From an uncultured Dehalococcoidales bacterium (GTDB lineage Bacteria; Chloroflexota; Dehalococcoidia; GIF9; UBA5629): 64,000 bases of DNA. This document shows positions 2,687-14,142 of this stretch, in pieces; the stretch's first letter is position 1; each line of letters starts with the position of its first letter. The position numbers and the translations under genes are program-made. The stretch covers positions 16,535-80,534 of the forward strand of contig CAZKOL010000004.1 of assembly GCA_964554375.1 (NCBI GenBank), written 5' to 3'. The notes under the pieces were generated by a model. It made no database searches, was not told the DNA's origin, and saw only the letters and a list, made by a program, of their open reading frames with translations.

Positions 2687-3662
2687 TTCTTTTAAGGCCC
2701 ATCTTGAGCTTTACTTCGCCGATGGTCTGACGCGCTATGGCCTGCGCTCGCTGCGCCCCGTCGGCAAGGATATCGTAAATATGCCCGGGGTCCTTCTCCA
2801 GTGTTGATCTCCGCTCACGGAAATCCTTGAGGCTGATGTTGATGCCGGCGGCCAGCAGCTTTTTACAGTCGACGCAGCCTATCCCCGCCACCCTGCACTG
2901 CGCCTCGATCTCTTGAACACGCGACTCGTTGAAAAATTTTTGCAGGCTGAACACGTTGCAGACCTCGGGGTGGCCCGGGTCGTTGCGGCGCTGCCTGGCA
3001 GGATCGGTCATGGCTGTCTTTACCCGCTCCAGCGTCTCATCCGGTGTGGCGGCCAGCTCGATGTGGTTGTTGTAGGACTTTCCCATCTTCTGCCCGCCGT
3101 CAAGGCCGCGCACCATGGGATAATTGGTCAGCCTGGCCTGCGGCTCGGGGAATGTCTCGCCGAAGATGAAATTGAAGCGGCGTACTATCTCCCTCGTCAT
3201 CTCCAGGTGAGGTAACTGGTCCTCGCCTACCGGGACGGCGTCCGATTTATAAAGCATAATGTCGGCGGCCATCAGCACGGGGTAGCCGACCAGGCCGAAA
3301 TTTACGTTCTGCGGCTGCATCCTGGCCTTCTCCTTGAAGGTCGGGACGCGCAGCAGCCAGCCCAGAGGGGTGAGCATGCCCAGCAGGGTGAACAGCTCGG
3401 TAACCTCGGGAACGTGCGACTGCACGAATACAATGGACCTTTTGGGATCGATGCCAGCGGCCAGCCAGTCGAGCGTCATCTCGAAGATGTTCTGCTGTAA
3501 CTCGGAGGTGCTCTCAAGCGTGGTGAGCGCGTGCAGGTCCACTATGCAGTAAATGCAATCATACTCTTCCTGCAGTCGTACATAGTTCTGAATAGCGCCG
3601 ATGTAATTGCCTATGTGCTGCCTGCCGGTGGGGCGCGCGCCGGAGAATACGCGTTTCTTCAT
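2679..3662 (-). CDS. trpS: Tryptophan--tRNA ligase
   Basis: 327 aa class I aaRS. N-terminal PTGRQHIGNYIGA (HIGH-like) and KMGKS (KMSKS) motifs, at the length expected for TrpRS. Confidence 0.9.
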   Translation of the reverse strand: MKKRVFSGARPTGRQHIGNYIGAIQNYVRLQEEYDCIYCIVDLHALTTLESTSELQQNIFEMTLDWLAAGIDPKRSIVFVQSHVPEVTELFTLLGMLTPLGWLLRVPTFKEKARMQPQNVNFGLVGYPVLMAADIMLYKSDAVPVGEDQLPHLEMTREIVRRFNFIFGETFPEPQARLTNYPMVRGLDGGQKMGKSYNNHIELAATPDETLERVKTAMTDPARQRRNDPGHPEVCNVFSLQKFFNESRVQEIEAQCRVAGIGCVDCKKLLAAGINISLKDFRERRSTLEKDPGHIYDILADGAQRAQAIARQTIGEVKLKMGLKRNA

Positions 3663-3692
3663 AACAGGTCAAGAGTTTAACACAAAAATAAT

Positions 3693-3776
3693 GTCATTGC
3701 GAGGAGCGTAGCGACGAAGCAATCTGTTGTTGCCGCCACTCCAGACACAGGATTGCTTCGCTTCGCTCGCAATGAC
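3693..3776. repeat. Inverted pair of the dispersed palindromic repeat (3693-3724 forward, 3751-3776 inverted) forming an ~85-nt hairpin
   Basis: gtcattgcgaggagcgtagcgacgaagcaatc ... gattgcttcgcttcgctcgcaatgac, with other copies at 23-54, 12441-12459 and 57662-57689. Confidence 0.65.
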
Positions 3777-3922
3777 CGGCTTCTTATCTTGTCACCCAAC
3801 TCGTCAAACCTTATTTCATAGCTGGGGGTGACAAGTGTGACGACTTTGCGGGGGGGGGATAACTGTATGTTTATATTCTTTTTCTATTTACCCGCTAATT
3901 TTTCAAACTCACGTATTCAGTC

Positions 3923-5230
3923 TCAGAGGTTCAGTTCACTCTTGTTAAAACATGCAGCTGCGTCTTTGTGTTTACCCATTGCTTTTAATGCCAAACCTTT
4001 GTGATGCCATGCCTCTCCTGTAGTGGAATCAATTTGTATCACCTTATCAAAACATTTTACTGCATCTTTATAATTATGTAATTTGCTCAGTTCTCTGCCT
4101 TTGTTGTACCACGCATCTATATCGCGAGGATTCAACCTAACCGCCTCATCAAAGCACTTGAGCGCGTCAGAATATTTATTAAGGGCGTCCTGGGCAATAC
4201 CCATGTTATACCAGACAATGGCATTTCGATTATTGAACGTAATGGATTTATCAAAGCATGTCACAGCTTCTCTGAAGTTATTTATATTCATAAGTGCCGT
4301 GCCTTTGCTAAACCACGCTTTGCCAAATTCTGGATCAATATTTATGACATGGTTATAGCATTCAATAGCTTCATCATTCTTCTCAAGATGCCTTAATAGC
4401 TCACCTTTTGCATACCATGCTCCTGTGGATTTCGAATCCAACGCGATAGCTTTATCATAACAGCTCGAAGCTTGGTTGTACTCTCCAATACACATTAGGA
4501 CTGTGCCTTTGTTTACCCAGCCACCAATAAATCTCGGCTCTATCTCAATTACTTTACTAAAGCAGTCAATTGCCTTATCGCACATTTTCTTCTGTAAGAA
4601 TTCTGCTCCATTTGTGTTCTGGATCACAGCTTCTTTTGAATTTAAAACATGATAACCACGGCTGGTTTCGCCGTGTTGTATCTTTTGATCCATAGTTAAA
4701 GCGTCATCGTATAAATAATGTGGGATTTCATAAAGCATTAGTATTGTATGCTTCTTATTACAGTCTCCGTTAATTAATACGAGTATCTCTGAAGCAACTT
4801 TTTTCTCCCTATCTTTAGACGTGAAAAGTATTTTCCCGTCCGGCGTAACGATAGTACAAGTAGCCCATGTTAATGCCCATTCAGAATTGCATTTGTGGCA
4901 TTTCCACCACATATTAATATCATTCCATCTATCGGTAGTAATTTTTATGGGCTTGCTGTCTACCACATCAAAAACATCGATAACAGCATATTTATTTTTA
5001 TTAAATATGTCCGGCATACTTTTATTGATTTTTTCAATGTACTGAATCAATGCACAGGGCGGCTTGAAATGATAGGGCTGATTTTTCATCGGTAATATAT
5101 AGTGATAATTATTTTCATCCAATGCAATCCCAACTTCCCAAACAACTGATTGCTTCGCCTCACAATTGAAACATTGCCTTTCAACTTTGGTAGTGAGCCA
5201 TAGAACACTCTTAAATTTCACCTCGTCCAT
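3923..5230 (-). CDS. Hypothetical protein with an N-terminal Cys-rich (CxxC...CxxC) domain and C-terminal TPR repeats
   Basis: 435 aa encoded in low-GC DNA. Contains CFNCE and CHKCN motifs, and the C-terminal half is made of multiple 34-aa TPR-like repeats (W/F..G.....G.Y..A...Y..A). Confidence 0.6.
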   Translation of the reverse strand: MDEVKFKSVLWLTTKVERQCFNCEAKQSVVWEVGIALDENNYHYILPMKNQPYHFKPPCALIQYIEKINKSMPDIFNKNKYAVIDVFDVVDSKPIKITTDRWNDINMWWKCHKCNSEWALTWATCTIVTPDGKILFTSKDREKKVASEILVLINGDCNKKHTILMLYEIPHYLYDDALTMDQKIQHGETSRGYHVLNSKEAVIQNTNGAEFLQKKMCDKAIDCFSKVIEIEPRFIGGWVNKGTVLMCIGEYNQASSCYDKAIALDSKSTGAWYAKGELLRHLEKNDEAIECYNHVINIDPEFGKAWFSKGTALMNINNFREAVTCFDKSITFNNRNAIVWYNMGIAQDALNKYSDALKCFDEAVRLNPRDIDAWYNKGRELSKLHNYKDAVKCFDKVIQIDSTTGEAWHHKGLALKAMGKHKDAAACFNKSELNL

Positions 5231-5299
5231 GTCCGGTTTCCTCCCCTTTCTAAAACGTGCATAATAAGTCGGTGAGCGACATTATTGGCGCTTCACATT

Positions 5300-6070
5300 C
5301 TATTTCAAAGTATCCATTCGTTTTATGATTTCATTTCCTATCGGAATAATTGATACACTGGCTTCGTCTTTAAAGGAAAGCGAGACGGTGAGGATATAAA
5401 CTTGATATTTTTTAAATATCAGGGTGCTATATGTGTAGTCTTCACCATCGATGTTAGTTGTACCTGTAGCATATGCGCATATATCTCCAATCGATGGATG
5501 ACTAACACTAAATGAAGGATCAGTCATCTGAATACTGTATTCAGTAGCACTTTTACGTAGGTATTTCAGCATATAATCCTTGAATTGTTTGTCGTCTTTA
5601 AGCAGTCCATCATAATAGGCTTGTTCTAAAAATCCACTGGCCTTTATTACAACACTATAAATTACTTGATAAGGTTCATTAGATATAAATAATTGGATTC
5701 CGCTTGCTCCTGTTCCAAGATCTGCAATTTTCTCAGGAGCAAATATCTGGGCAGCGTCTGTTTTGAGGAATCTTGGCGGTAGATTTTCAGCCATGTTTAG
5801 AATATACGGTGCATCGGATAAAGCGATTTTTGAACTTGTGACCGCTGAATTAATAATGATAGCCAATATCACGACGACTGCAATTAATATGATAATTAGT
5901 GCGCGCTTGGATACTATAAACAAGGTCTTTTGCCTCGGAGGTGCAGGCTGATATTCAGCGTCCTCTATTGGCCAAGTTAATTGGACACCGCACTTATCAC
6001 AAATTTTACCCCCCGGCATGACTGGCAGGCCACAACGCGGACATATATAAGTGTGCTGCATTTTATCCAA
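5300..6070 (-). CDS. Zinc-ribbon membrane-anchored protein (N-terminal CPRCG..CDKCG, single TM, extracytoplasmic domain)
   Basis: 256 aa. A zinc ribbon is followed by the hydrophobic segment LIIILIAVVVILAIII, in low-GC DNA. Confidence 0.55.
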   Translation of the reverse strand: MDKMQHTYICPRCGLPVMPGGKICDKCGVQLTWPIEDAEYQPAPPRQKTLFIVSKRALIIILIAVVVILAIIINSAVTSSKIALSDAPYILNMAENLPPRFLKTDAAQIFAPEKIADLGTGASGIQLFISNEPYQVIYSVVIKASGFLEQAYYDGLLKDDKQFKDYMLKYLRKSATEYSIQMTDPSFSVSHPSIGDICAYATGTTNIDGEDYTYSTLIFKKYQVYILTVSLSFKDEASVSIIPIGNEIIKRMDTLK

Positions 6071-6162
6071 TAATAGTTAAAACCTATTGATAATTAATAT
6101 GTCATATACGCGCTATAATCACAGGGAATTGCGCCATCACAAGTATTTTTCCTGTGGGTTCA

Positions 6163-7161
6163 TCATTGTCCCAATTCCGCCGCCTTTTTAAAATCTGCTT
6201 CGGCTTTGCTCTTATCGCCTATTTTATTATATGAAAGCCCACGGTTGTAGTAAGCGTTGGCAAAATTCGGTCTTAATTCTATGGCTTTAGTGCAATCGGC
6301 TATGGAATGGTTGTATTCATTCATAAAAAAATAACTATTCGCACGATTGTAGTATGCTGCTGCATACTTCGGGTTCAGTTCTATTGCTTTAGTGAAATCA
6401 GCTATGGCTTCGTTGCAGCCTCTTAATTTATAGCAAAGTCCACGGTTGTTGAATACTTCTGCATCATTCGGGTTTAGTTCTATTGCTTTGTTTAAATCAA
6501 CTAGAGCTTTGTCACGGTCATTTTGTCGATAATATACATTCCCACGGCCACTATAAGCATCAGCATTATTCGGGTTTAGCGCTATTGCCTTGTTGTAATC
6601 AGAAATAGCTTTGTCATAGTCACCTTTTTTATAATAGGAAAGCCCACGATTGAGGTAAGCGATGGTAGGATCCGGGTCTATCTCTATTGCCTTGGTGAAA
6701 TCAACTATGGCTTTATCATATAGTCCTTCTTTGCCATAGGCCAGCCCACGACCTTGGTAAGCCATGGCATCCTTCGGGTCCAGTCCTATCGATGTAGTAA
6801 AATCAGTAATAGCGTTGTCGTAGTTACCAATGTCACTATAGGCACGCCCGCGCCCGCAGTAAGCCTGGGCATATTTCGGGTCTATATCAATCGCCTTATT
6901 GTAATCAGCTATAGCTTTGTCGTATTCACCTTTGACAGCATAGGAGACACCACGGTAGAAGTAAGCAACAGCATCTTGCGGGTTTAGCGCTATTGCTTTT
7001 GTGTAATTGTCAACGGCCTGGTCCCATTGATTGGGCCCGTTATTTATGCAACTTAAAAGCAACATTACTGTGGCAAGGAAAGCACATACGGTAATTGTAA
7101 TTATTCTCTTGTATTTCATAATTTCCTCTATGTCATGCCTTTTGTTAATTTTGTTGCTCAT
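6163..7161 (-). CDS. TPR-repeat lipoprotein
   Basis: 332 aa. Has a signal peptide with the lipobox LLLSC, followed by about 8 tandem TPR repeats (AYxxRGxxYxxxGxYDKAIxDxxKAIELNP). Its start overlaps the upstream gene by 4 bp (ATGA). Confidence 0.7.
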   Translation of the reverse strand: MSNKINKRHDIEEIMKYKRIITITVCAFLATVMLLLSCINNGPNQWDQAVDNYTKAIALNPQDAVAYFYRGVSYAVKGEYDKAIADYNKAIDIDPKYAQAYCGRGRAYSDIGNYDNAITDFTTSIGLDPKDAMAYQGRGLAYGKEGLYDKAIVDFTKAIEIDPDPTIAYLNRGLSYYKKGDYDKAISDYNKAIALNPNNADAYSGRGNVYYRQNDRDKALVDLNKAIELNPNDAEVFNNRGLCYKLRGCNEAIADFTKAIELNPKYAAAYYNRANSYFFMNEYNHSIADCTKAIELRPNFANAYYNRGLSYNKIGDKSKAEADFKKAAELGQ

Positions 7162-7613
7162 GGTTTATTCTCTTGTCTTGTCATTTCGGATGAGTTTGTT
7201 ATTTGCGCCTGGGTTTTCGATGTCTTTTTATTACTTAGAATAATTGAAATAATCGGGAAAAATAAGGCCAACCAAAGCCAATTTAAACTCCTGCCTTTTT
7301 GATGTAATACCCATCCATTTACAGGTAACATAGCCCAGCACAGAAAGTAGGTTGAAGCATTTTTTGCTGTTCCAACAATGTCGAATCCCAGAAATGTTCT
7401 TAAGAAAGCAATAAAAAAACAAAAACCGAGGAGCCAGAACAACCATGTTAGATTCAAGTGTTTCTTAAACCAGGATGTTTCTACGGTTTTTGATTGTTTA
7501 CTATTTACAACTACGGGTATATTACCTTGGCATCCACAATCATCTGCATAACCCATAAATTCCCTTCCGCACTTCGAGCATGTTCTGTTTATCATCCTAT
7601 TCTTCCTCCCCAT
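7158..7613 (-). CDS. Zinc-ribbon multi-pass membrane protein
   Basis: 151 aa. N-terminal CSKCG...CGC zinc ribbon followed by 3-4 predicted TM helices. Confidence 0.5.
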   Translation of the reverse strand: MGRKNRMINRTCSKCGREFMGYADDCGCQGNIPVVVNSKQSKTVETSWFKKHLNLTWLFWLLGFCFFIAFLRTFLGFDIVGTAKNASTYFLCWAMLPVNGWVLHQKGRSLNWLWLALFFPIISIILSNKKTSKTQAQITNSSEMTRQENKP

Positions 7614-7633
7614 TTGTAGTAAAATGCTGAAGT

Positions 7634-8098
7634 TTATTTGGCTTTACTAAATAGTTTTTTTGGAAAATCAGTATCGCCTATTTTATAAGTTAGTTGGCCA
7701 TCACTTCCTATTACGGCGTATTTCTCTCTGGGTGACCTGGCCACGGTAACCCATTTGCTTTTCTCATTGTCTCCGATAAACATTAGTTTTGCTAACTCCT
7801 GGAAGCTCAGGCAGCATATACCATCTTCACCACATACCAACCCAATAAAGACATCATTAACCCCCTTCTTAACTTCAGTAAGTTCTTTGATATGTTCCGG
7901 TGCAAAAGTGAAACCCCAGGGAGTTAGACGCTTTTTACAATGCTTGATATGGAGATAGACCGTGCTATTGATCAAATAGCCGTTGTTACCTGTAAATAGC
8001 TTTATTGATTCCGGTTTTCCATCTTGAATCAGACGTACCAGTGCAATGCCATGATAAGTTTTATAGTTATCCATTCGCTTTTTGACATAAATTTTCAT
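7634..8098 (-). CDS. Hypothetical protein, possible effector partner of the Z1 ATPase
   Basis: 154 aa ORF whose start overlaps the 3' end of the upstream Z1-ATPase gene by 32 bp. No recognisable motifs. Confidence 0.45.
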   Translation of the reverse strand: MKIYVKKRMDNYKTYHGIALVRLIQDGKPESIKLFTGNNGYLINSTVYLHIKHCKKRLTPWGFTFAPEHIKELTEVKKGVNDVFIGLVCGEDGICCLSFQELAKLMFIGDNEKSKWVTVARSPREKYAVIGSDGQLTYKIGDTDFPKKLFSKAK

Positions 8099-9926
8099 AG
8101 ATTTTAATATTCTCCGCGTACCAATACACTACACGTGATTGGTTCATCGTATTACGTAAAATCATGAAATGATGAAGTGCGCGTGGATATTGCTTTAAAT
8201 CTTTGCCTCCAAATACATTTCTCTGCCTAATTAAATTGTTATGATAATCCGTATCTGCCTCTTGAATTGGCCGTATCTCATGTATTGCGATGTATCCTGC
8301 ATGCGGTTTTGTATTGATTCTAATGAAGTCAATTATGTATTCCGGCAGAACCTCATCGCCGAATTCCTTATTGATTTTTTCTAATTTACCTATCTCATCA
8401 ATGATACGGTCGTGGATTATTTCCTCAATTCTATTTGAATACTTGAAGACTGCGAATAACATCTCGCCTTCTTTTAGAACCACCGCTCTTTTATCTATGC
8501 TACCTGACGCGGCCGGCGTGATTCGATTGTCAGCAAGCCAGATGGGTGCACCTCTTTTTGTCTTTATAGCTTGTAGTGACAGATAATGATATACAAAACA
8601 CCTGTGCCAATCCGCATATAATGTTTTTGGTATAGATAATTCAAATAGATCCAGATATCCCTTCCGATTTCCAAACATTCTTGCTCTTTGTATATAAGTA
8701 TCTTGCTGTATTCGATGCTTGGCATCCCTGGTGAAAAACATGCTTAATAGGTTATTGATTGTGATGCCTCTTGATATCATATTGCCACCGATTATTATCG
8801 TAAATAGAGACGGTGGTTCAGTCGTGATCATGCTGCTTTTTTTCTGGTAATTCATGACCTCAACAAATTTTTTCCCCAGATGGCTGATCACAAATTCTAC
8901 TATCTTATCAGCAGTTTTTTCGCCATATTTATTATTTGCAGTCTCCCAAAGTCGTCTAATGTATTTATCTCGTTGCTGGTCGCCATTGTCATTTAAGATG
9001 CGTAGAACGTCAGATACCACTTTTTTATCTTTGTCATGAGCATCTGTTTTTCCACTTGTGTGGATTAGAAAACAGCATTTAACATCGTCATGAAGAGCTG
9101 TTGTCATTTTATTCTTAATATTTTCATCAATATTGACGTACCCGACATTTACTATAAATCTTAATAATGCATCTATAAGGTATTTAGGATCGTCCCCTGT
9201 ATCCTTCAAAGGTACTAATGAATAATGCAGTGGTACCGTCAGGTCAATGGGAAAGAATTCATTTTTACCCACATAGTATTCGTGTGGTTCAAAGCACAGC
9301 CAGTTCTTTGAAATATTGTCGAAAGTATTATTTAAGTCTATTCGCGCCGGTGTAGCAGTAACGCCTACATAAATTCCATTGTTATCGAGTAGCTTGTTTA
9401 TTTCATCGTTTATCCTGCTTCTCTCATTTTTATTTATTTTTGAATTAGGAGAGGCGAAGTCAGCTTCGTCGTCAATGACAACCTTGCCGCGTTTGTTGCG
9501 CAGATATTCATTTAATTTCTTTAAAACGTTAGCGTTTTTCCTCGAAAATATAATGCATCGGTCGTCAACCATTTTCGGATCAGTAACAGAAATAATATCA
9601 ACCGGTGTCGGATCTATGTCCGAATCTTGAAATCGCTTCAGATTTTGTTCCAATAACGGGATAGTGTCATTTATTAGAATTACTATGTTTTTGTGTCCAA
9701 GGTCTTGCAGTTTCGAGGTTAAAGCGACCATCATTTCAGTTTTACCACTTTGCGGCTCACCATATATTACAAATGACTTGGCACCCGATTCCAAATTACC
9801 TACGGCTTCCATAACCGTTTTTTCGATGTGTTCTGTGTTCTTTCCTCTGTTACGTAATGCGTTGATATGTCTGTCGTATCTATCGGCATCAGAAGTTAGA
9901 TCTTTGAATTTGTTAATATCGAACAT
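8067..9926 (-). CDS. Z1-domain SF2-helicase-like ATPase (defence-island associated)
   Basis: 619 aa. Walker A VIYGEPQSGKTEM, Walker B VVIDDEADFASP, motif III GVTATPARI, and a C-terminal IIIGGNMISRGITINNL segment typical of Z1-domain proteins. AT-rich codon usage. Confidence 0.7.
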   Translation of the reverse strand: MFDINKFKDLTSDADRYDRHINALRNRGKNTEHIEKTVMEAVGNLESGAKSFVIYGEPQSGKTEMMVALTSKLQDLGHKNIVILINDTIPLLEQNLKRFQDSDIDPTPVDIISVTDPKMVDDRCIIFSRKNANVLKKLNEYLRNKRGKVVIDDEADFASPNSKINKNERSRINDEINKLLDNNGIYVGVTATPARIDLNNTFDNISKNWLCFEPHEYYVGKNEFFPIDLTVPLHYSLVPLKDTGDDPKYLIDALLRFIVNVGYVNIDENIKNKMTTALHDDVKCCFLIHTSGKTDAHDKDKKVVSDVLRILNDNGDQQRDKYIRRLWETANNKYGEKTADKIVEFVISHLGKKFVEVMNYQKKSSMITTEPPSLFTIIIGGNMISRGITINNLLSMFFTRDAKHRIQQDTYIQRARMFGNRKGYLDLFELSIPKTLYADWHRCFVYHYLSLQAIKTKRGAPIWLADNRITPAASGSIDKRAVVLKEGEMLFAVFKYSNRIEEIIHDRIIDEIGKLEKINKEFGDEVLPEYIIDFIRINTKPHAGYIAIHEIRPIQEADTDYHNNLIRQRNVFGGKDLKQYPRALHHFMILRNTMNQSRVVYWYAENIKIYENLCQKANG

Positions 9927-10191
9927 TTTGTGCTCTTTGTATAATTAGCTTTCTCGACTTATTATGAATGCAATAACTTCGTAAATTGTCTACACCGATC
10001 TGCGCAGGATTATATAACTCTTTTTATAACTACGCAATACTATTAATGTTCTAAACCCGTCAATACCCTATAAGACCCTGACAAACCCCTTTTTAACAGT
10101 CTAAATATGCTGACGCGGCTGTCAATGGCTATGTATTTACTTGAAAATGCACAACGTGAGGGTAACTACGACCTGGCAGCCCTGGCCGTTC

Positions 10192-10462
10192 CTACATGCC
10201 GTCGAGCGCAGTCACTCCCATGAGGTGGAGCGCCCTGGCCAAGACTATTTGTGCGGCCATCACCAGCTTCAGCCTGGCAGCCGTAAGGTCCGCATCTTCC
10301 GAGATGACGCGGCACTGCTCATGGAAAGGACTGTAAGACCGTGTCCAGGTCCTGGGCGTAGAAAGGCAGGTGATGCAGCTGGTGTGACAGCGCAACTGTC
10401 TCGATTATCTCCAGCATCCTGGCCATGCTGCGTATCAGCGCCAACTGGGGCTCCTCAATCAG
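10192..10462 (-). pseudogene. Duplicated, diverged 3'-terminal fragment of argS (about 90 codons), the left direct repeat of the integration signature
   Basis: Translation [43 protein letters not shown] parallels the ArgS C-terminus [43 protein letters not shown] encoded at 12484-12753. Nucleotide similarity extends across 10085-10462 versus 12226-12753. Confidence 0.75.
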
Positions 10463-10469
10463 GTTTCAT

Positions 10470-12143
10470 CTATTTCACAATCGTTATCTGCCGTGGATCG
10501 GTCGCTATAATGCACGGAGCCCCCTTGTAACGGTCGATTTTCCCCAGAACCCTCACATTATTATCCATATAGGTAAACACGTCAGGGAATTTCTTGAAGT
10601 CCTGGATATTGATGACCACCCTGAAATCAGTTCCGCACTGTCCCTGTTTCCAAGCGTCGTAGTTGTTACAATGTTGATTCGGATTATCAAAATATAGCAA
10701 CATGGGTCGGGTTTCTACGTCCCAGGCACTGGCATATTCAACAACTGACCCTTCGATAGCTACTTCCTTGCCCAAATATTTGTTTATTTTTTCTAAGTCT
10801 AAAGCAGAAATTGTCGTTTCCGGTTTAATAGTTATCTCGGCCATTGTTGGCGCCTTTAGTTTCTCGGCCAATTCGTAGGGCACTTTCCCCCAGTTTGGTG
10901 ATCCATCAGCATAGTTGTTATTAATAATCCTTGTTACGTTGCTTCCATCTGCATCCATGGTATATATTTGCCATGCGTTTTTAAAGCGAATACCGAAATC
11001 CAATGGTTTACCATCTCTATCCGATACGAATGCTATCTTTTTGCCATCGGGTGACCATTCCGACCAATCGTTAAACTGACCATGTCCACCAATATTTTGC
11101 GCTTGAGTTAAATTTATTTGATGACTTCCATCAGAATTCATAACATAAATATCGTAAATTTCGGTATTTACATCTTTTTTAGAACTTAGGTAGGCTATTT
11201 TGCTGTCATCAGGAGAGTATGCTCCACCTCCGTCCCAGGTGACATATTGCGATGTCAAAGTTTTAATGCTTTTCATCAGTGGATTTGAATTTGGATCGAA
11301 CAATGACGTACTAGTGCGTGCTGGTTTGAGAACCAATCTGTTACCTGTATATGACCACGATTCACCGGAATAGTTGTCTGGAGTGGAGTTGAAAATAATC
11401 TGCTTGACCATATCGTAATCTATGTCAATTTCCCACAAACTATATCCACCATCGCCCAAAGTATTACATATCAGCTTTTTCCCATCACGTGACCATTTTG
11501 GCCATGAATACGCTTCTGGCGTTGTAGTAATTTTCAAGAATTTGGTTCCCTCTGCATTCATAACCCAAATGTGACCGTAATTTGAATGTGTAGAACAAAA
11601 TACAATCATAGTGCCATCCGGTGACCAACTGGGCATGCTATCCCATTTAAGACTGCCAGTGAGATTCTTGACATTTCCACCATCTACATCCATAACGAAA
11701 ATATCCCAGTTGTTATCTCCTTTATTATCAGGTTCCCATTTTCTGTCTGAGACGAATAATATCTTTTTCCCATCAGGTGACAAACTGGGTATTAAATCCA
11801 TATCTGAGTTATTTGTTAAGTTCACCTGGTTATTACCGTCTGGATCCATGATATAGATTTCATAATTATTCCCAGATAACACATTCCAGCCTTTTGCCCA
11901 GTCCCACTGCCACGTGGCATCGCGCAACGACCAGAATACGATTTTCTCCTGATATTCTGGATTCTGTGGCAAAGCGGCCGGTTTAGTCAGAGTCTTATTA
12001 TCAACCTCGGTCGGGGATTGGGGTTTTATTGATTGATTATCAACAACAACCGGTAGGGGAGTCTTAATACCAGGTGTACAACTTACAAAAATTGTAATAA
12101 TAACCAATAATGAAACGGCTATAACGACTGACATTTTAACCAT
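10470..12143 (-). CDS. TolB-like beta-propeller (PD40-repeat) lipoprotein with an uncharacterised C-terminal domain
   Basis: 557 aa. Signal peptide/lipobox FVSC, a Pro/Gln-rich linker, repeated SPDG/SWSPDGK PD40 motifs, and low GC content. Confidence 0.7.
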   Translation of the reverse strand: MVKMSVVIAVSLLVIITIFVSCTPGIKTPLPVVVDNQSIKPQSPTEVDNKTLTKPAALPQNPEYQEKIVFWSLRDATWQWDWAKGWNVLSGNNYEIYIMDPDGNNQVNLTNNSDMDLIPSLSPDGKKILFVSDRKWEPDNKGDNNWDIFVMDVDGGNVKNLTGSLKWDSMPSWSPDGTMIVFCSTHSNYGHIWVMNAEGTKFLKITTTPEAYSWPKWSRDGKKLICNTLGDGGYSLWEIDIDYDMVKQIIFNSTPDNYSGESWSYTGNRLVLKPARTSTSLFDPNSNPLMKSIKTLTSQYVTWDGGGAYSPDDSKIAYLSSKKDVNTEIYDIYVMNSDGSHQINLTQAQNIGGHGQFNDWSEWSPDGKKIAFVSDRDGKPLDFGIRFKNAWQIYTMDADGSNVTRIINNNYADGSPNWGKVPYELAEKLKAPTMAEITIKPETTISALDLEKINKYLGKEVAIEGSVVEYASAWDVETRPMLLYFDNPNQHCNNYDAWKQGQCGTDFRVVINIQDFKKFPDVFTYMDNNVRVLGKIDRYKGAPCIIATDPRQITIVK

Positions 12144-12282
12144 TCTTCTGCCTCCATAGATCTCCGATACTATAGTTTAGGTTATCCGTCATAACAATGC
12201 CACTATGCGAGTGCCCCACCCGACCCTGACAAAACCCCCTTTTTTAATGCGCACAAATGTACTATTATGGTAGTCAACGGCC

Positions 12283-12400
12283 ATGTCTTTACTTGAAAAA
12301 GCGCTACGGGAAGGTAATTACGAGTTGGCGGCTCTGACCATCGTCTACGGCATGCTCAGAGTGTTACATGATAGAAAAGAAGCAGAAAGGGGCCCCCCAG
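12283..12400 (+). other. Small ORF/conserved segment (MSLLEKALREGNYELAAL...) that is part of the duplicated attachment-like region; a diverged copy begins at 10125
   Basis: The two copies share MxxLLExAxREGNY(D/E)LAAL. Coding status is uncertain. Confidence 0.25.
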
Positions 12401-12483
12401 GGGCAACCAGAACGCCCGGAGGCACGGGTTCTACAGCTTTTGCTTTCGTTCGCAATGACGGGGTGAGGAGGGGCCGGCGCGTC

Positions 12484-14142
12484 CTACATCTTATCCGGCG
12501 CGGTCATGCCCATCAGGTGTAGCGTCCTGGCCAGGACTATTCTTGCGGCCAGTACGAGCTTCAGCCGGGCGGCGGTCAGGTCCGCGTCTTCCGAGATGAC
12601 GCGGCACTGTTTATAGAAGGAATGAAAGACCGTGGCCAGGTCCTGGGCGTAGAAGGTCAGGTGATGGGGCTGGTGTGACAGCGCGACGGTCTCGATGATC
12701 TCAGGCATTTTGGCCATGCTGCGTATCAGGGTCAACTCCGGCTCCTCAATCAGCAGGCTTGTATCGCCGTTGGCGAAGTCGATCCCTTTCTCCGCTGCGT
12801 TGCGCAGGATGCTGCTGATGCGCGCGTGCGCGTACTGCACATAATAGACCGGGTTGTCGGCGGACTGCTTTATGGCCAGCTCCAGGTCGAAGTCCATCTG
12901 GCTATCAGCCGAGCGCGACAGGAAAACGAAGCGGCAGGCATCGGGGCCGACCTCCTCCAGCAGCTCGCGCAGTGTGATGATATCGCCGCTCCTTTTGGAG
13001 ATTTTAACCGCCTCTTTGCCGCGCCTCAGTGTGACAAGCTGGCAGATGATGATCTCGAGCCTTTCGGAGTCGATGCCCAGCGCTCCCAGCACTACCTTCA
13101 TCCGCTGGACATGGCCCTGGTGATCAGCCCCCCAGATGTCGATGACATTGTCGAACTTCCTCACGGCGAACTTGTCGTAGTGATATGCAATATCGGAGGC
13201 AAAATAGGTGGGTGTACCATCGGAGCGCACCAGGACATTATCCTTGTCCTCTCCCAGGGTGGAGGAGGTGAACCAGGTGGCATTCTCCCTTTCTGCTATA
13301 TAGCCACCGTCCCTCAGCATGCGCATCGTGTCGTCATACCGGCCGCTCTTGAACAGGCTTTGCTCGCTGAACCACTCATTGAAGGTTACGCCCAGCGTTT
13401 CAAGGTCCTGCCTGATCTGCTGCATCTCCCTCTCTATCCCGATCTGACCGATCTCCGCCACGGCGCGCTCCTCAGGCAGGCCGGCGTATTTATCTCCGTA
13501 TTGCTTAACGAGTTCCCTGGCCAGGTCTACGAGATAGCTGCCGTGATACCCGTTGGCCGGTACCTCGACCTCCTTTCCCAGGGCCTGCAGGTAGCGTGCA
13601 TACAATGACCGGTGGAAAGCCTCGAGCTGGCTGCCGGCATCATTTATGTAATATTCCGTTGAAACCCTGTAGCCGGCCGCTTTAAGGACGTTGGCCAGCG
13701 TGCTGCCCAGCACGGCCCCCCGCCCATGTCCCACGTGAAGGGGCCCGGTGGGATTTCCGCTGACGAACTCAATCTGGATGCTTTTGTCCTCAAGTTGTAT
13801 GTTGCCGTAAGCCTCGCCTGCCCGGCAGATGGCGTCCACCTGGCGGTTCAGCCATTTTTTACTCAGCGTAAAGTTGATAAACCCCGGCGGCGCCGCAGCA
13901 ACCTTCTCTAAATCGCTGTCCGGTGACATGTGATCAACTATGGCAGCGGCCACGTCCATGGGCTTCATCCCGGTCAGCCGCGCCAGCTTGAGTGGCAGGC
14001 TGCTGGCATAGTCTCCGTGTTCCGGCCTGGCAGGCCTCTCGATTGTTATCTCCGGCAGGCTGGAGTTACCCACCAGGCCTTTTTCGCCAGCCATGGCAAA
14101 GGCCTGCTCCAGCATTTCAGCCAGCCGTTTTTTAAAAATCAT
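12484..14142 (-). CDS. argS: Arginine--tRNA ligase
   Basis: 552 aa class I aaRS with HVGHGRG (HIGH) and KISKRSG (KMSKS) motifs, plus an N-terminal Arg-tRNA-synthetase add-on domain. Confidence 0.92.

What the first reader, a model, noticed from the sequence alone, without database searches (positions are those of the whole stretch)
3923..7613. Two consecutive zinc-ribbon-membrane-protein + TPR-protein gene pairs
The gene order is Zn-ribbon TM protein (7158-7613), then TPR lipoprotein (6163-7161, overlapping by ATGA), followed again by Zn-ribbon TM protein (5300-6070), then Cys-rich TPR protein (3923-5230). N-terminal cytoplasmic zinc ribbons fused to TM anchors are reminiscent of anti-sigma or signal-transducing membrane proteins. 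The repeated pairing suggests a modular sensor/scaffold system co-transcribed with the Z1 ATPase.
Basis: inference. Interest (0 to 1): 0.55.

Follow-up and report, generated by a model that had tools for sequence, protein, structure and literature searches.

The report
Phage-borne envelope-protein gene cassette
The four genes are real and travel together as a mobile, phage-associated cassette of membrane and surface proteins of unknown function in a Dehalococcoidia bacterium, but they are not two copies of one gene pair and not an anti-sigma system.

Summary
The gene order is as described and all four ORFs are real genes (dN/dS 0.25-0.39 against an 88.6%-identical copy elsewhere). The "repeated pair" reading fails. 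The two zinc-ribbon proteins are unrelated (E=0.11). The two TPR proteins share only generic TPR similarity, and one is a lipoprotein while the other is cytoplasmic.

Across six independent loci the conserved unit is the two membrane proteins together. A is 145 aa, with a Cys4 motif and 2-3 TM segments. B is a zinc ribbon, one TM and an ectodomain. The TPR genes are optional.

B's ectodomain is an unannotated family with a Mog1/PsbP-like fold (PknH sensor, LpqN, DcrB). Some relatives carry a cytoplasmic TIR domain instead of the zinc ribbon.

The block lies in an 8.7-kb low-GC island between argS and trpS. A 97%-identical co-occurring strain lacks the island. The same cassette sits as a low-GC, opposite-strand insert inside phage genomes, beside terminase, portal, protease and integrase genes.

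Best reading: a moron-like lysogenic-conversion cassette acting at the cell envelope, possibly in superinfection exclusion. The function is inferred, not shown.

The parts
7158..7595 (-). Gene A: 145-aa small membrane protein. It has an N-terminal CxxC-x10-CxC motif and a highly conserved membrane core (WFKKHLNLTWL ... MLPVNGWVLxQKGRSLxWLWL ... SNKK). The ORF extends to 7613, but the conserved start is 7595.
   Evidence: The family has 4 clusters among 5.8e9 proteins. dN/dS is 0.19-0.25. One homologue (P0009, in L016) lacks the Cys4 motif.
6163..7161 (-). TPR332: a lipoprotein with 9 TPR_1 stretches. It is coupled to A by an ATGA overlap. It is an accessory member, present only with type-1 B.
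   Evidence: The lipobox is conserved in the window, L013 and L011. The gene is absent from L012, L014/L015 and L027. dN/dS is 0.39.
5300..6070 (-). Gene B: cytoplasmic zinc ribbon (4 invariant Cys), one TM, and an approximately 175-aa extracytoplasmic domain with a Mog1/PsbP-like fold.
   Evidence: The AF2 model has pLDDT 88.1. The best Foldseek hits are Apa, the PknH sensor, LpqN, TiME, DcrB and PsbP. There is no Pfam or NCBIfam family for the ectodomain.
3923..5230 (-). TPR435: a cytoplasmic protein. An orphan approximately 205-aa N-domain with two conserved CxxC motifs is followed by TPR repeats, with a Cys at the same position in seven successive 34-residue repeat units.
   Evidence: The N-domain has only one other relative, P0010, a stand-alone 177-aa protein whose neighbours include no A or B. 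dN/dS is 0.39.
3923..7621 (-). The four-gene block as a transferable unit. Homology with L013 starts 26 nt upstream of A's ATG and ends at the stop codon of TPR435.
   Evidence: L013 4095-7770 matches window 7621-3923 at 88.6% identity over 3700 nt.
3777..12444 (.). A low-GC (about 36-43%) strain-specific island between argS and trpS that contains the block. A close relative has about 84 nt here instead.
   Evidence: L037 is 97.6% and 95% identical in the flanks and has argS directly followed by trpS. L036 (85% identical) shows the same.
12227..12437 (+). A phage-derived element: a small ORF (MSLLEKALREGNYELAAL...) plus the first ~16 recognisable codons of a terminase-small-subunit-like gene. 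It lies immediately upstream of, and divergent from, a low-GC cassette. A second, shorter copy is at 10074-10199.
   Evidence: The same element is at L013 1844-2090 and L027 9649-9858, about 80% identical. The full-length L027 gene matches TerS phrog_1889 (E=3e-9).
7634..9926 (-). [not shown]

Best explanation
The region is a horizontally mobile, phage-associated accessory cassette of the 'moron' type. It encodes proteins that assemble at the cytoplasmic membrane and cell surface of a Dehalococcoidia host.

The conserved working core is the gene pair A then B. A is a small polytopic membrane protein with a cytoplasmic Cys4 knuckle. B is a type-II membrane protein: a cytoplasmic zinc ribbon and one TM displaying a Mog1/PsbP-like binding domain outside the cell.

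In one sub-lineage (type-1 B) two adaptors were added. A TPR lipoprotein sits on the outer face and is translationally coupled to A. A cytoplasmic TPR protein carries a Cys-rich N-domain. I infer that these contact, respectively, the B ectodomain or A loops outside the cell and the zinc-ribbon tails inside it.

I propose that the complex changes the lysogen's envelope so that it excludes or senses incoming phages or other surface threats. This would be superinfection exclusion or envelope-level conflict, with rapid diversification of the exposed B protein.

Shown: the genes are real and under purifying selection; the block is a discrete unit; it is strain-specific here; it lies inside phage genomes elsewhere; and the domain architecture, localisation signals and fold of B are as stated.

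Inferred: physical interaction of the four proteins, topology details, and the exclusion or sensing function.
For: **Module and coding**
- The block recurs at 88.6% identity in L013.
- dN/dS is 0.19-0.39.

**A then B is the core**
- The pair is adjacent or overlapping in L012, L014/L015 and L027 (6-nt gap, 8-nt overlap, 7-nt gap).
- It is separated only by lipoprotein genes in the window, L013 and L011.

**Phage association**
- L027/L029 (an IMG/VR contig) carries TerS, TerL, portal, major capsid protein and integrase at 55-62% GC. On the opposite strand it has a 36-39% GC insert encoding A, B and a multi-TM CAP protein.
- In L013 the block lies between a head maturation protease (2.5e-64) and a portal/head-morphogenesis gene.
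- The window island keeps a TerS remnant at each cassette boundary.

**Strain-specific and exchanged**
- L037 and L036 have an empty site.
- The L012 allele is 99.3% identical up to position 7167, then switches to the phage-type B (90.7% identical to L027).
- A is conserved (85% aa) while B diverges (47% aa) between types.

**Surface-binding or sensor character of B**
- The AF2 model has pLDDT 88.
- Foldseek matches the PknH sensor, LpqN, DcrB and PsbP.
- The top BFVD hits are phage lipoproteins.
- Some relatives have TIR-TM-ectodomain fusions.

**Fit with the moron concept**
Morons differ in GC content from their surroundings and often encode membrane exclusion proteins such as HK97 gp15, P22 SieA and Cor (PMC3594210).
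Against: - There is no experimental or homology-based link to any known exclusion or defence protein. PADLOC, PHROGs, Pfam and NCBIfam give nothing for A or for the B ectodomain.
- Promoter and terminator scans are at chance level.
- Foldseek E-values are borderline (about 1e-3, TM-score 0.43-0.55 normalised to the target). The BFVD matches have poor rmsd.
- In L014 the pair lies among membrane proteases, a thioredoxin-like protein and a PD40 lipoprotein. That is equally compatible with an envelope-maintenance role.
- The families are tiny (4-5 clusters), so co-occurrence statistics rest on six loci. Several of these come from related populations.
Confidence: 0.45

Rival explanations
1. The cassette is an envelope biogenesis, maintenance or niche-adaptation cargo with no role in phage conflict. 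The B ectodomain would act like LpqN or DcrB, as a partner of envelope transporters or lipoprotein handling. The TPR, PD40, NHL and Ank lipoproteins would be surface scaffolds for adhesion or nutrient capture, and the cassette merely hitch-hikes on phages.
For: - The fold resembles LpqN ('cell envelope biogenesis') and DcrB.
- In L014 the neighbours are membrane trypsin-like proteases, a thioredoxin-like membrane protein and a PD40 lipoprotein.
- Many ectodomain relatives are plain lipoproteins.
- Other low-GC cassettes at the same boundaries encode repeat lipoproteins (PD40, NHL, Ank).
Against: - The cassette is absent from a 97%-identical strain, so it is dispensable.
- It lies inside phage genomes on the opposite strand.
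- B diverges strongly while A is conserved.
- Some relatives are TIR-fused.
Confidence: 0.25
2. [not shown]
For: - All six genes share a strand, with gaps of at most 92 nt and no terminator-like site between genes.
- The 154-aa protein belongs to a phage protein family.
Against: - Homology with L013 begins at 7621, in the gap after the 154-aa gene, so the two parts are separate cassettes joined by recombination.
Confidence: 0.1
3. This is the first reader's reading: a zinc-binding anti-sigma or transmembrane signalling system, in which the zinc ribbons hold a cytoplasmic regulator that is released on an extracytoplasmic signal.
For: - B has the layout of a single-pass sensor, and its ectodomain resembles the PknH sensor domain.
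- The window copy of B contains H-x3-C-x2-C (HTYICPRC).
Against: - No sigma-factor gene appears in the precomputed Pfam gene lists, which cover about 10 kb on either side of the island and 17 kb of L014. The other loci were read only as ORF lists.
- The His is not conserved: homologues have Q, N or P at that position.
- There is no zf-HC2 or anti-sigma domain hit.
- The zinc modules are about 25-residue ribbons, not helical anti-sigma domains.
- One A homologue lacks the Cys4 motif altogether.
Confidence: 0.05
4. The ORFs are decaying remnants of a defunct prophage and have no current function.
For: - The island keeps only fragments of phage genes: a 16-codon TerS remnant and an argS 3' fragment.
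- In L011 the TPR lipoprotein gene is split into 249-aa and 67-aa ORFs.
Against: - All four ORFs are intact in more than 20 contigs from many samples.
- dN/dS is 0.19-0.39.
- The ATGA coupling and the lipobox are conserved.
Confidence: 0.04

Closest known systems
Phage morons encoding membrane superinfection-exclusion proteins (HK97 gp15, P22 SieA, Cor; TP-J34 Ltp lipoprotein)
   Same: - It is an accessory insert inside temperate-phage genomes, with GC unlike its surroundings, on its own strand.
- It encodes small membrane proteins and lipoproteins.
- It is strain-variable (concept from PMC3594210).
   Different: - It has no sequence similarity to any of these proteins.
- It has two to four genes rather than one.
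- It has zinc-ribbon cytoplasmic tails and TPR partners.
- Its function is untested.
- Here it is retained in a chromosomal island without the phage.
Mog1/PsbP-like extracytoplasmic domains: M. tuberculosis PknH sensor domain (4esq), LpqN (6e5d), Apa (5zx9), TiME (7cu9); Salmonella DcrB (6e8a)
   Same: The predicted alpha-beta-alpha sandwich of B's ectodomain matches these structures. Like them, it is anchored outside the cytoplasmic membrane by a TM helix or, in relatives, by a lipid.
   Different: - Similarity is at fold level only: 9-12% identity, E about 1e-3.
- There is no Pfam membership.
- The cytoplasmic part is a 25-residue zinc ribbon (or TIR in relatives) instead of a kinase.
Zinc-binding (ZAS) anti-sigma factors such as RsrA/RslA/ChrR-type
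   Same: Both have an N-terminal cytoplasmic Cys-rich zinc site, one TM and an extracytoplasmic domain.
   Different: - The H-x3-C-x2-C motif is not conserved.
- There is no anti-sigma domain.
- There is no partner ECF sigma gene.
[not shown]
   Different: - The match to MzaC is far below its cutoff (38.7 bits against 1500).

Membership tests
ZAS-type anti-sigma factor | Conserved H-x3-C-x2-C zinc motif within an N-terminal anti-sigma domain | tested here: not met
   The window copy of B reads HTYICPRC, but homologues have Q, N or P in place of the His. A has CxxC-x10-CxC. Pfam gives no zf-HC2 or anti-sigma domain hit.
ZAS-type anti-sigma factor | Co-transcribed or adjacent ECF sigma factor gene | tested here: not met
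   The precomputed Pfam lists show no Sigma70 family. They cover 21 kb around the island, about 10 kb on either side in the empty-site relative and 17 kb of L014. ORF lists of L013, L027, L011 and L020 show no evident sigma gene, but their ORFs were not all scanned.
Phage moron | Insert within an otherwise conserved phage gene order | tested here: met
   In L027 the cassette lies between TerS/TerL and the 452-aa gene and integrase. In L013 it lies between the portal/head-morphogenesis gene and the head protease.
Phage moron | Base composition different from the flanking phage genes | tested here: met
   The cassette is 35-42% GC, against 52-65% in the flanks in L027 and L013 and 56% in the window.
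Phage moron | Independent transcription unit with its own promoter and terminator, expressed from the prophage | tested here: inconclusive
   The cassette is on the opposite strand to the flanking phage genes in L027 and L013, so it must be transcribed separately. Promoter and terminator scans do not exceed chance. Expression cannot be tested with these tools.
Known superinfection-exclusion or defence protein families | Sequence membership in a described family (PADLOC, PHROGs, Pfam, NCBIfam) | tested here: not met
   A and B have no hit in PADLOC, PHROGs or NCBIfam, and only sub-threshold zinc-ribbon hits in Pfam.
Known superinfection-exclusion or defence protein families | Blocks phage adsorption or DNA entry in the lysogen | not testable with these tools
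   This needs a phage-host experiment.
Mog1/PsbP-like fold (PknH_C, LpqN, DcrB, PsbP) | Alpha-beta-alpha sandwich with a central antiparallel sheet | tested here: met
   The AF2 model has pLDDT 88.1 and pTM 0.70. Foldseek gives prob 1.00, E 8.5e-4 to 7e-3, and target-normalised TM 0.43-0.55 to 5zx9, 4esq, 6e5d, 6e8a and 2xb3. The E-values are borderline.
Mog1/PsbP-like fold (PknH_C, LpqN, DcrB, PsbP) | Sequence-profile membership in a Pfam family of that clan | tested here: not met
   None of the 42 family members scanned hits such a family at E<=0.01.
Zinc ribbon (Pfam DZR / Zn_ribbon_1 / Zn_ribbon_3) | Two CxxC knuckles about 10 residues apart, conserved across homologues | tested here: met
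   In B, C10, C13, C24 and C27 are invariant in 8 sequences. The window copy is below the Pfam threshold (18.4 bits against 27.3), but relatives reach 4.5e-8 and 9.1e-9. A's CxxC-x10-CxC is kept in 4 homologues and lost in P0009. Metal binding was not tested.
TPR repeat proteins | Tandem 34-residue TPR motifs | tested here: met
   TPR_1 E=1.8e-85 with 9 stretches for TPR332, and 1.3e-53 with 6 stretches for TPR435. DNA repeats of period 102 nt are present.
[not shown]
   [not shown]

The most novel reading that the evidence does not exclude
A-B, with its optional TPR adaptors, is a previously undescribed phage-borne, envelope-level anti-phage system of Chloroflexota. B's Mog1/PsbP-like ectodomain would be a surface receptor for incoming phage or envelope damage. 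The same sensor domain is wired to a cytoplasmic TIR effector in related proteins. That would define a new family of transmembrane, Toll-like-receptor-style bacterial immune sensors.
Probability: 0.15. Interest if true: 0.75.

Novelty: new variant of a known kind. Interest (0 to 1): 0.4.

Why it matters
- **Two unannotated protein families.** The work defines the A membrane core and the B ectodomain, and a concrete co-inherited gene set in an uncultured Dehalococcoidia lineage. Almost nothing is known there about phage-host interplay.
- **A natural comparison.** Co-occurring strains carry the island, lack it, or carry an alternative allele. Phage genomes carrying the same cassette are also available. 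Metagenomic time series or heterologous expression could exploit this.
- **A possible sensor class.** The TIR-TM-ectodomain relatives hint that this ectodomain may be a surface sensor used by bacterial immune effectors. If confirmed, that would be of general interest.
- **Otherwise ordinary.** If not confirmed, the region is a typical flexible-island cargo of envelope proteins.

Tried and rejected
- **Duplicated pairs.** BLASTP of A against B (E=0.11), and of TPR332 against TPR435, which share only generic TPR similarity. Rejected.
- **Internal duplication in the TPR435 N-domain.** No alignment found.
- **Sequence relatives of the TPR435 N-domain.** PDB, Pfam and IMG/VR gave nothing. The only relative is P0010, which has no A or B nearby.
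- **GTDB species-representative scan with the B alignment.** It returned only a spurious zinc-ribbon match, so the source species, or at least its island, is not among the representatives. The broader alignment A3 was too diverse for that tool.
- **First AF2 model.** The model from 5 sequences was too poor (pLDDT 59.6). It was replaced by the 42-sequence model.
- **Rfam scan of 3000-13000.** No RNA family found.
- **Promoter and terminator scans.** Results were at chance level. The hairpin after TPR435 is not significant (z=-1.86).
- **Other copies in the window.** There are no paralogues of any module gene and no other phage gene in the 64-kb window.
- **L020's 172-aa Zn-ribbon/TM protein.** It is not homologous to A.
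- **Context of a TIR-fused relative.** The contig was too short to show neighbours.


Full report
**Observation**

The four ORFs lie on the minus strand at the coordinates given.

- **A (7158-7613).** It carries CxxC-x10-CxC near its N-terminus and 2-3 hydrophobic segments. Homology with other loci starts at the ATG at 7595, which follows GGGGAGGAAG, so the protein is probably 145 aa.
- **TPR332 (6163-7161).** It has 9 TPR_1 stretches (E=1.8e-85). Its ATG overlaps A's stop codon as ATGA. A lipobox is conserved in three homologues.
- **B (5300-6070).** It has CPRC-x10-CDKC, one strong TM helix and an ectodomain of about 175 aa. The four Cys are invariant in eight homologues. The Pfam zinc-ribbon hits for this copy are below threshold.
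- **TPR435 (3923-5230).** It has no signal peptide or TM segment. An orphan N-domain of about 205 aa with two CxxC motifs is followed by TPR repeats.

All four are genuine genes. The block 7621-3923 recurs at 88.6% nucleotide identity in another contig (L013), and per-gene dN/dS is 0.25-0.39.

**The pairs are not repeats of one unit**

A and B show no similarity (BLASTP E=0.11). The two TPR proteins align at 27-29% only across their TPR arrays. One is a lipoprotein and the other is cytoplasmic with a different N-domain.

Both membrane-protein families are very small. B has 5 clusters and A has 4 clusters among 5.8 billion proteins. Looking up their members gave six independent contexts:

| Locus | Arrangement |
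|---|---|
| Window | A, TPR332, B, TPR435 |
| L013 | Same four genes, preceded by NHL and Ank lipoprotein genes |
| L011 | A, a 271-aa lipoprotein, a split TPR lipoprotein, then B |
| L012 | A then B, 6-nt gap |
| L014/L015 | A then B, 8-nt overlap |
| L027/L029 | A then B, 7-nt gap |

The conserved unit is therefore A followed by B. The TPR lipoprotein occurs only with one B type (window, L013, L011). TPR435 is seen only in the window and L013. A is well conserved between the two types (85% aa) whereas B is not (47% aa). One A homologue lacks the Cys4 motif. More distant A-like membrane cores occur without B.

**What B is**

A profile of the B family found about 60 more clusters that share only the ectodomain. 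They are lipoproteins, zinc-ribbon-TM proteins, and two TIR-TM-(CARDB)-ectodomain proteins. No Pfam or NCBIfam model covers the domain.

With 42 sequences in the alignment, AlphaFold2 gave a confident model (pLDDT 88.1, pTM 0.70). Foldseek against the PDB places the ectodomain in the Mog1/PsbP-like alpha-beta-alpha sandwich group. Its matches are M. tuberculosis Apa, the PknH extracellular sensor, LpqN and TiME, Salmonella DcrB, and PsbP. E-values are about 1e-3 and target-normalised TM-scores are 0.43-0.55. The best viral matches are phage lipoproteins, but with poor superposition.

**Genomic setting**

The host is a Chloroflexota/Dehalococcoidia population. This rests on the names attached to members of the TrpS cluster at 90% identity or more.

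The genes lie in a low-GC stretch (36-43% against 56%) between argS and trpS. A co-occurring strain, 97.6% and 95% identical in the flanks (L037), has argS followed directly by trpS. So does a more distant relative (L036, 85% identical). The island is therefore about 8.67 kb (about 3777-12444). In L037 it is replaced by about 84 nt, and its junctions lie in REP-like palindromes.

Many assemblies break at the island edge. An alternative allele exists in the same sample series. L012 is 99.3% identical up to position 7167, then continues with the other B type, which is 90.7% identical to the phage copy.

**Phage link**

L027/L029 is an IMG/VR viral contig. On one strand, at 55-62% GC, it carries small and large terminase, portal, capsid and integrase genes. 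On the other strand it has a 36-39% GC insert encoding A, B and a multi-TM CAP-domain protein.

In L013 the low-GC block lies between a head maturation protease (E=2.5e-64) and a portal/head-morphogenesis gene.

This pattern matches the description of phage morons: GC unlike the surroundings, separate transcription, and products that are often membrane exclusion proteins (PMC3594210).

No sigma-factor gene appears in any precomputed Pfam gene list. The H-x3-C-x2-C string in B is not conserved. No anti-sigma domain is detected.

**Most likely mechanism**

I read the cassette as a lysogenic-conversion module acting at the envelope.

- The core is A and B in the membrane, with B's binding domain exposed outside the cell.
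- In the type-1 lineage, TPR332 would sit outside the membrane. This is supported by the lipobox and by coupling to A.
- TPR435 would sit inside the cell, as a scaffold for the zinc-ribbon tails. This is inference only.

Four observations favour a role in phage exclusion or surface sensing: location inside phage genomes, presence or absence between near-identical strains, allele swapping with a phage copy, and fast divergence of the exposed protein. The TIR-fused relatives point the same way.

None of this is demonstrated. An envelope-maintenance or niche-adaptation cargo remains a serious rival.

**Verdict**

Noticed in passing
window ~3777-12444: An 8.67-kb low-GC island lies between argS and trpS. 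It is absent from a 97%-identical co-occurring strain (L037) and from an 85%-identical relative (L036). Many metagenome contigs break at its trpS-side edge.
   Followed up: yes
window 3693-3779, 12445-12462, 23-52: REP-like palindromic elements (GTCATTGCGAGCGAAGCGAAGCAATCC ... CTCGCAATGAC) lie at both island junctions. The empty site in L037 has two tandem copies. An 18-nt direct repeat brackets the island.
   Followed up: partly
window 10190-10462 (versus 12482-12753): A 272-nt copy of the argS 3' end lies inside the island and is about 81-87% identical to the real one. Together with the adjacent phage-derived element, it flanks the PD40 gene. This suggests past site-specific or homologous capture at argS.
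   Followed up: partly
[not shown]
   Followed up: partly
[not shown]
   Followed up: partly
window 3923-4564 (TPR region of TPR435): Cys occupies the same position in seven successive 34-residue repeat units (residues 223, 257, 291, 325, 359, 393, 427). It is conserved in the L013 copy. This is an unusual cysteine ladder along one face of the superhelix.
   Followed up: no
window 10470-12143 (-): A PD40/TolB-like beta-propeller lipoprotein (557 aa) with an extra C-terminal domain of about 130 aa forms its own low-GC cassette. A distantly related PD40 lipoprotein also lies near A-B in L014.
   Followed up: partly
L012 5537-6751 versus window 7167: A second allele of the island exists in the same sample series. 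It is 99.3% identical up to the 3' end of gene A, then switches to the phage-type B (90.7% identical to L027) with no TPR lipoprotein. This is evidence for recent cassette exchange with a phage.
   Followed up: yes
P0026, P0035 (L041): Some relatives of the B ectodomain have a cytoplasmic TIR domain, a TM helix and CARDB domains, giving a Toll-like-receptor-style layout. The only contig retrieved was too short to show neighbours.
   Followed up: partly
L027 11228-12190; L020 919-2439: A polytopic membrane domain (46% identity over 195 aa) with variable C-terminal ectodomains (CAP/SCP in L027) recurs next to B-like genes in two unrelated loci. L020 also has a TPR lipoprotein and two adjacent proteins with near-identical zinc ribbons.
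   Followed up: partly
L013 2161-4048: NHL-repeat and ankyrin-repeat lipoproteins share the prophage-embedded low-GC block with the four-gene module.
   Followed up: no
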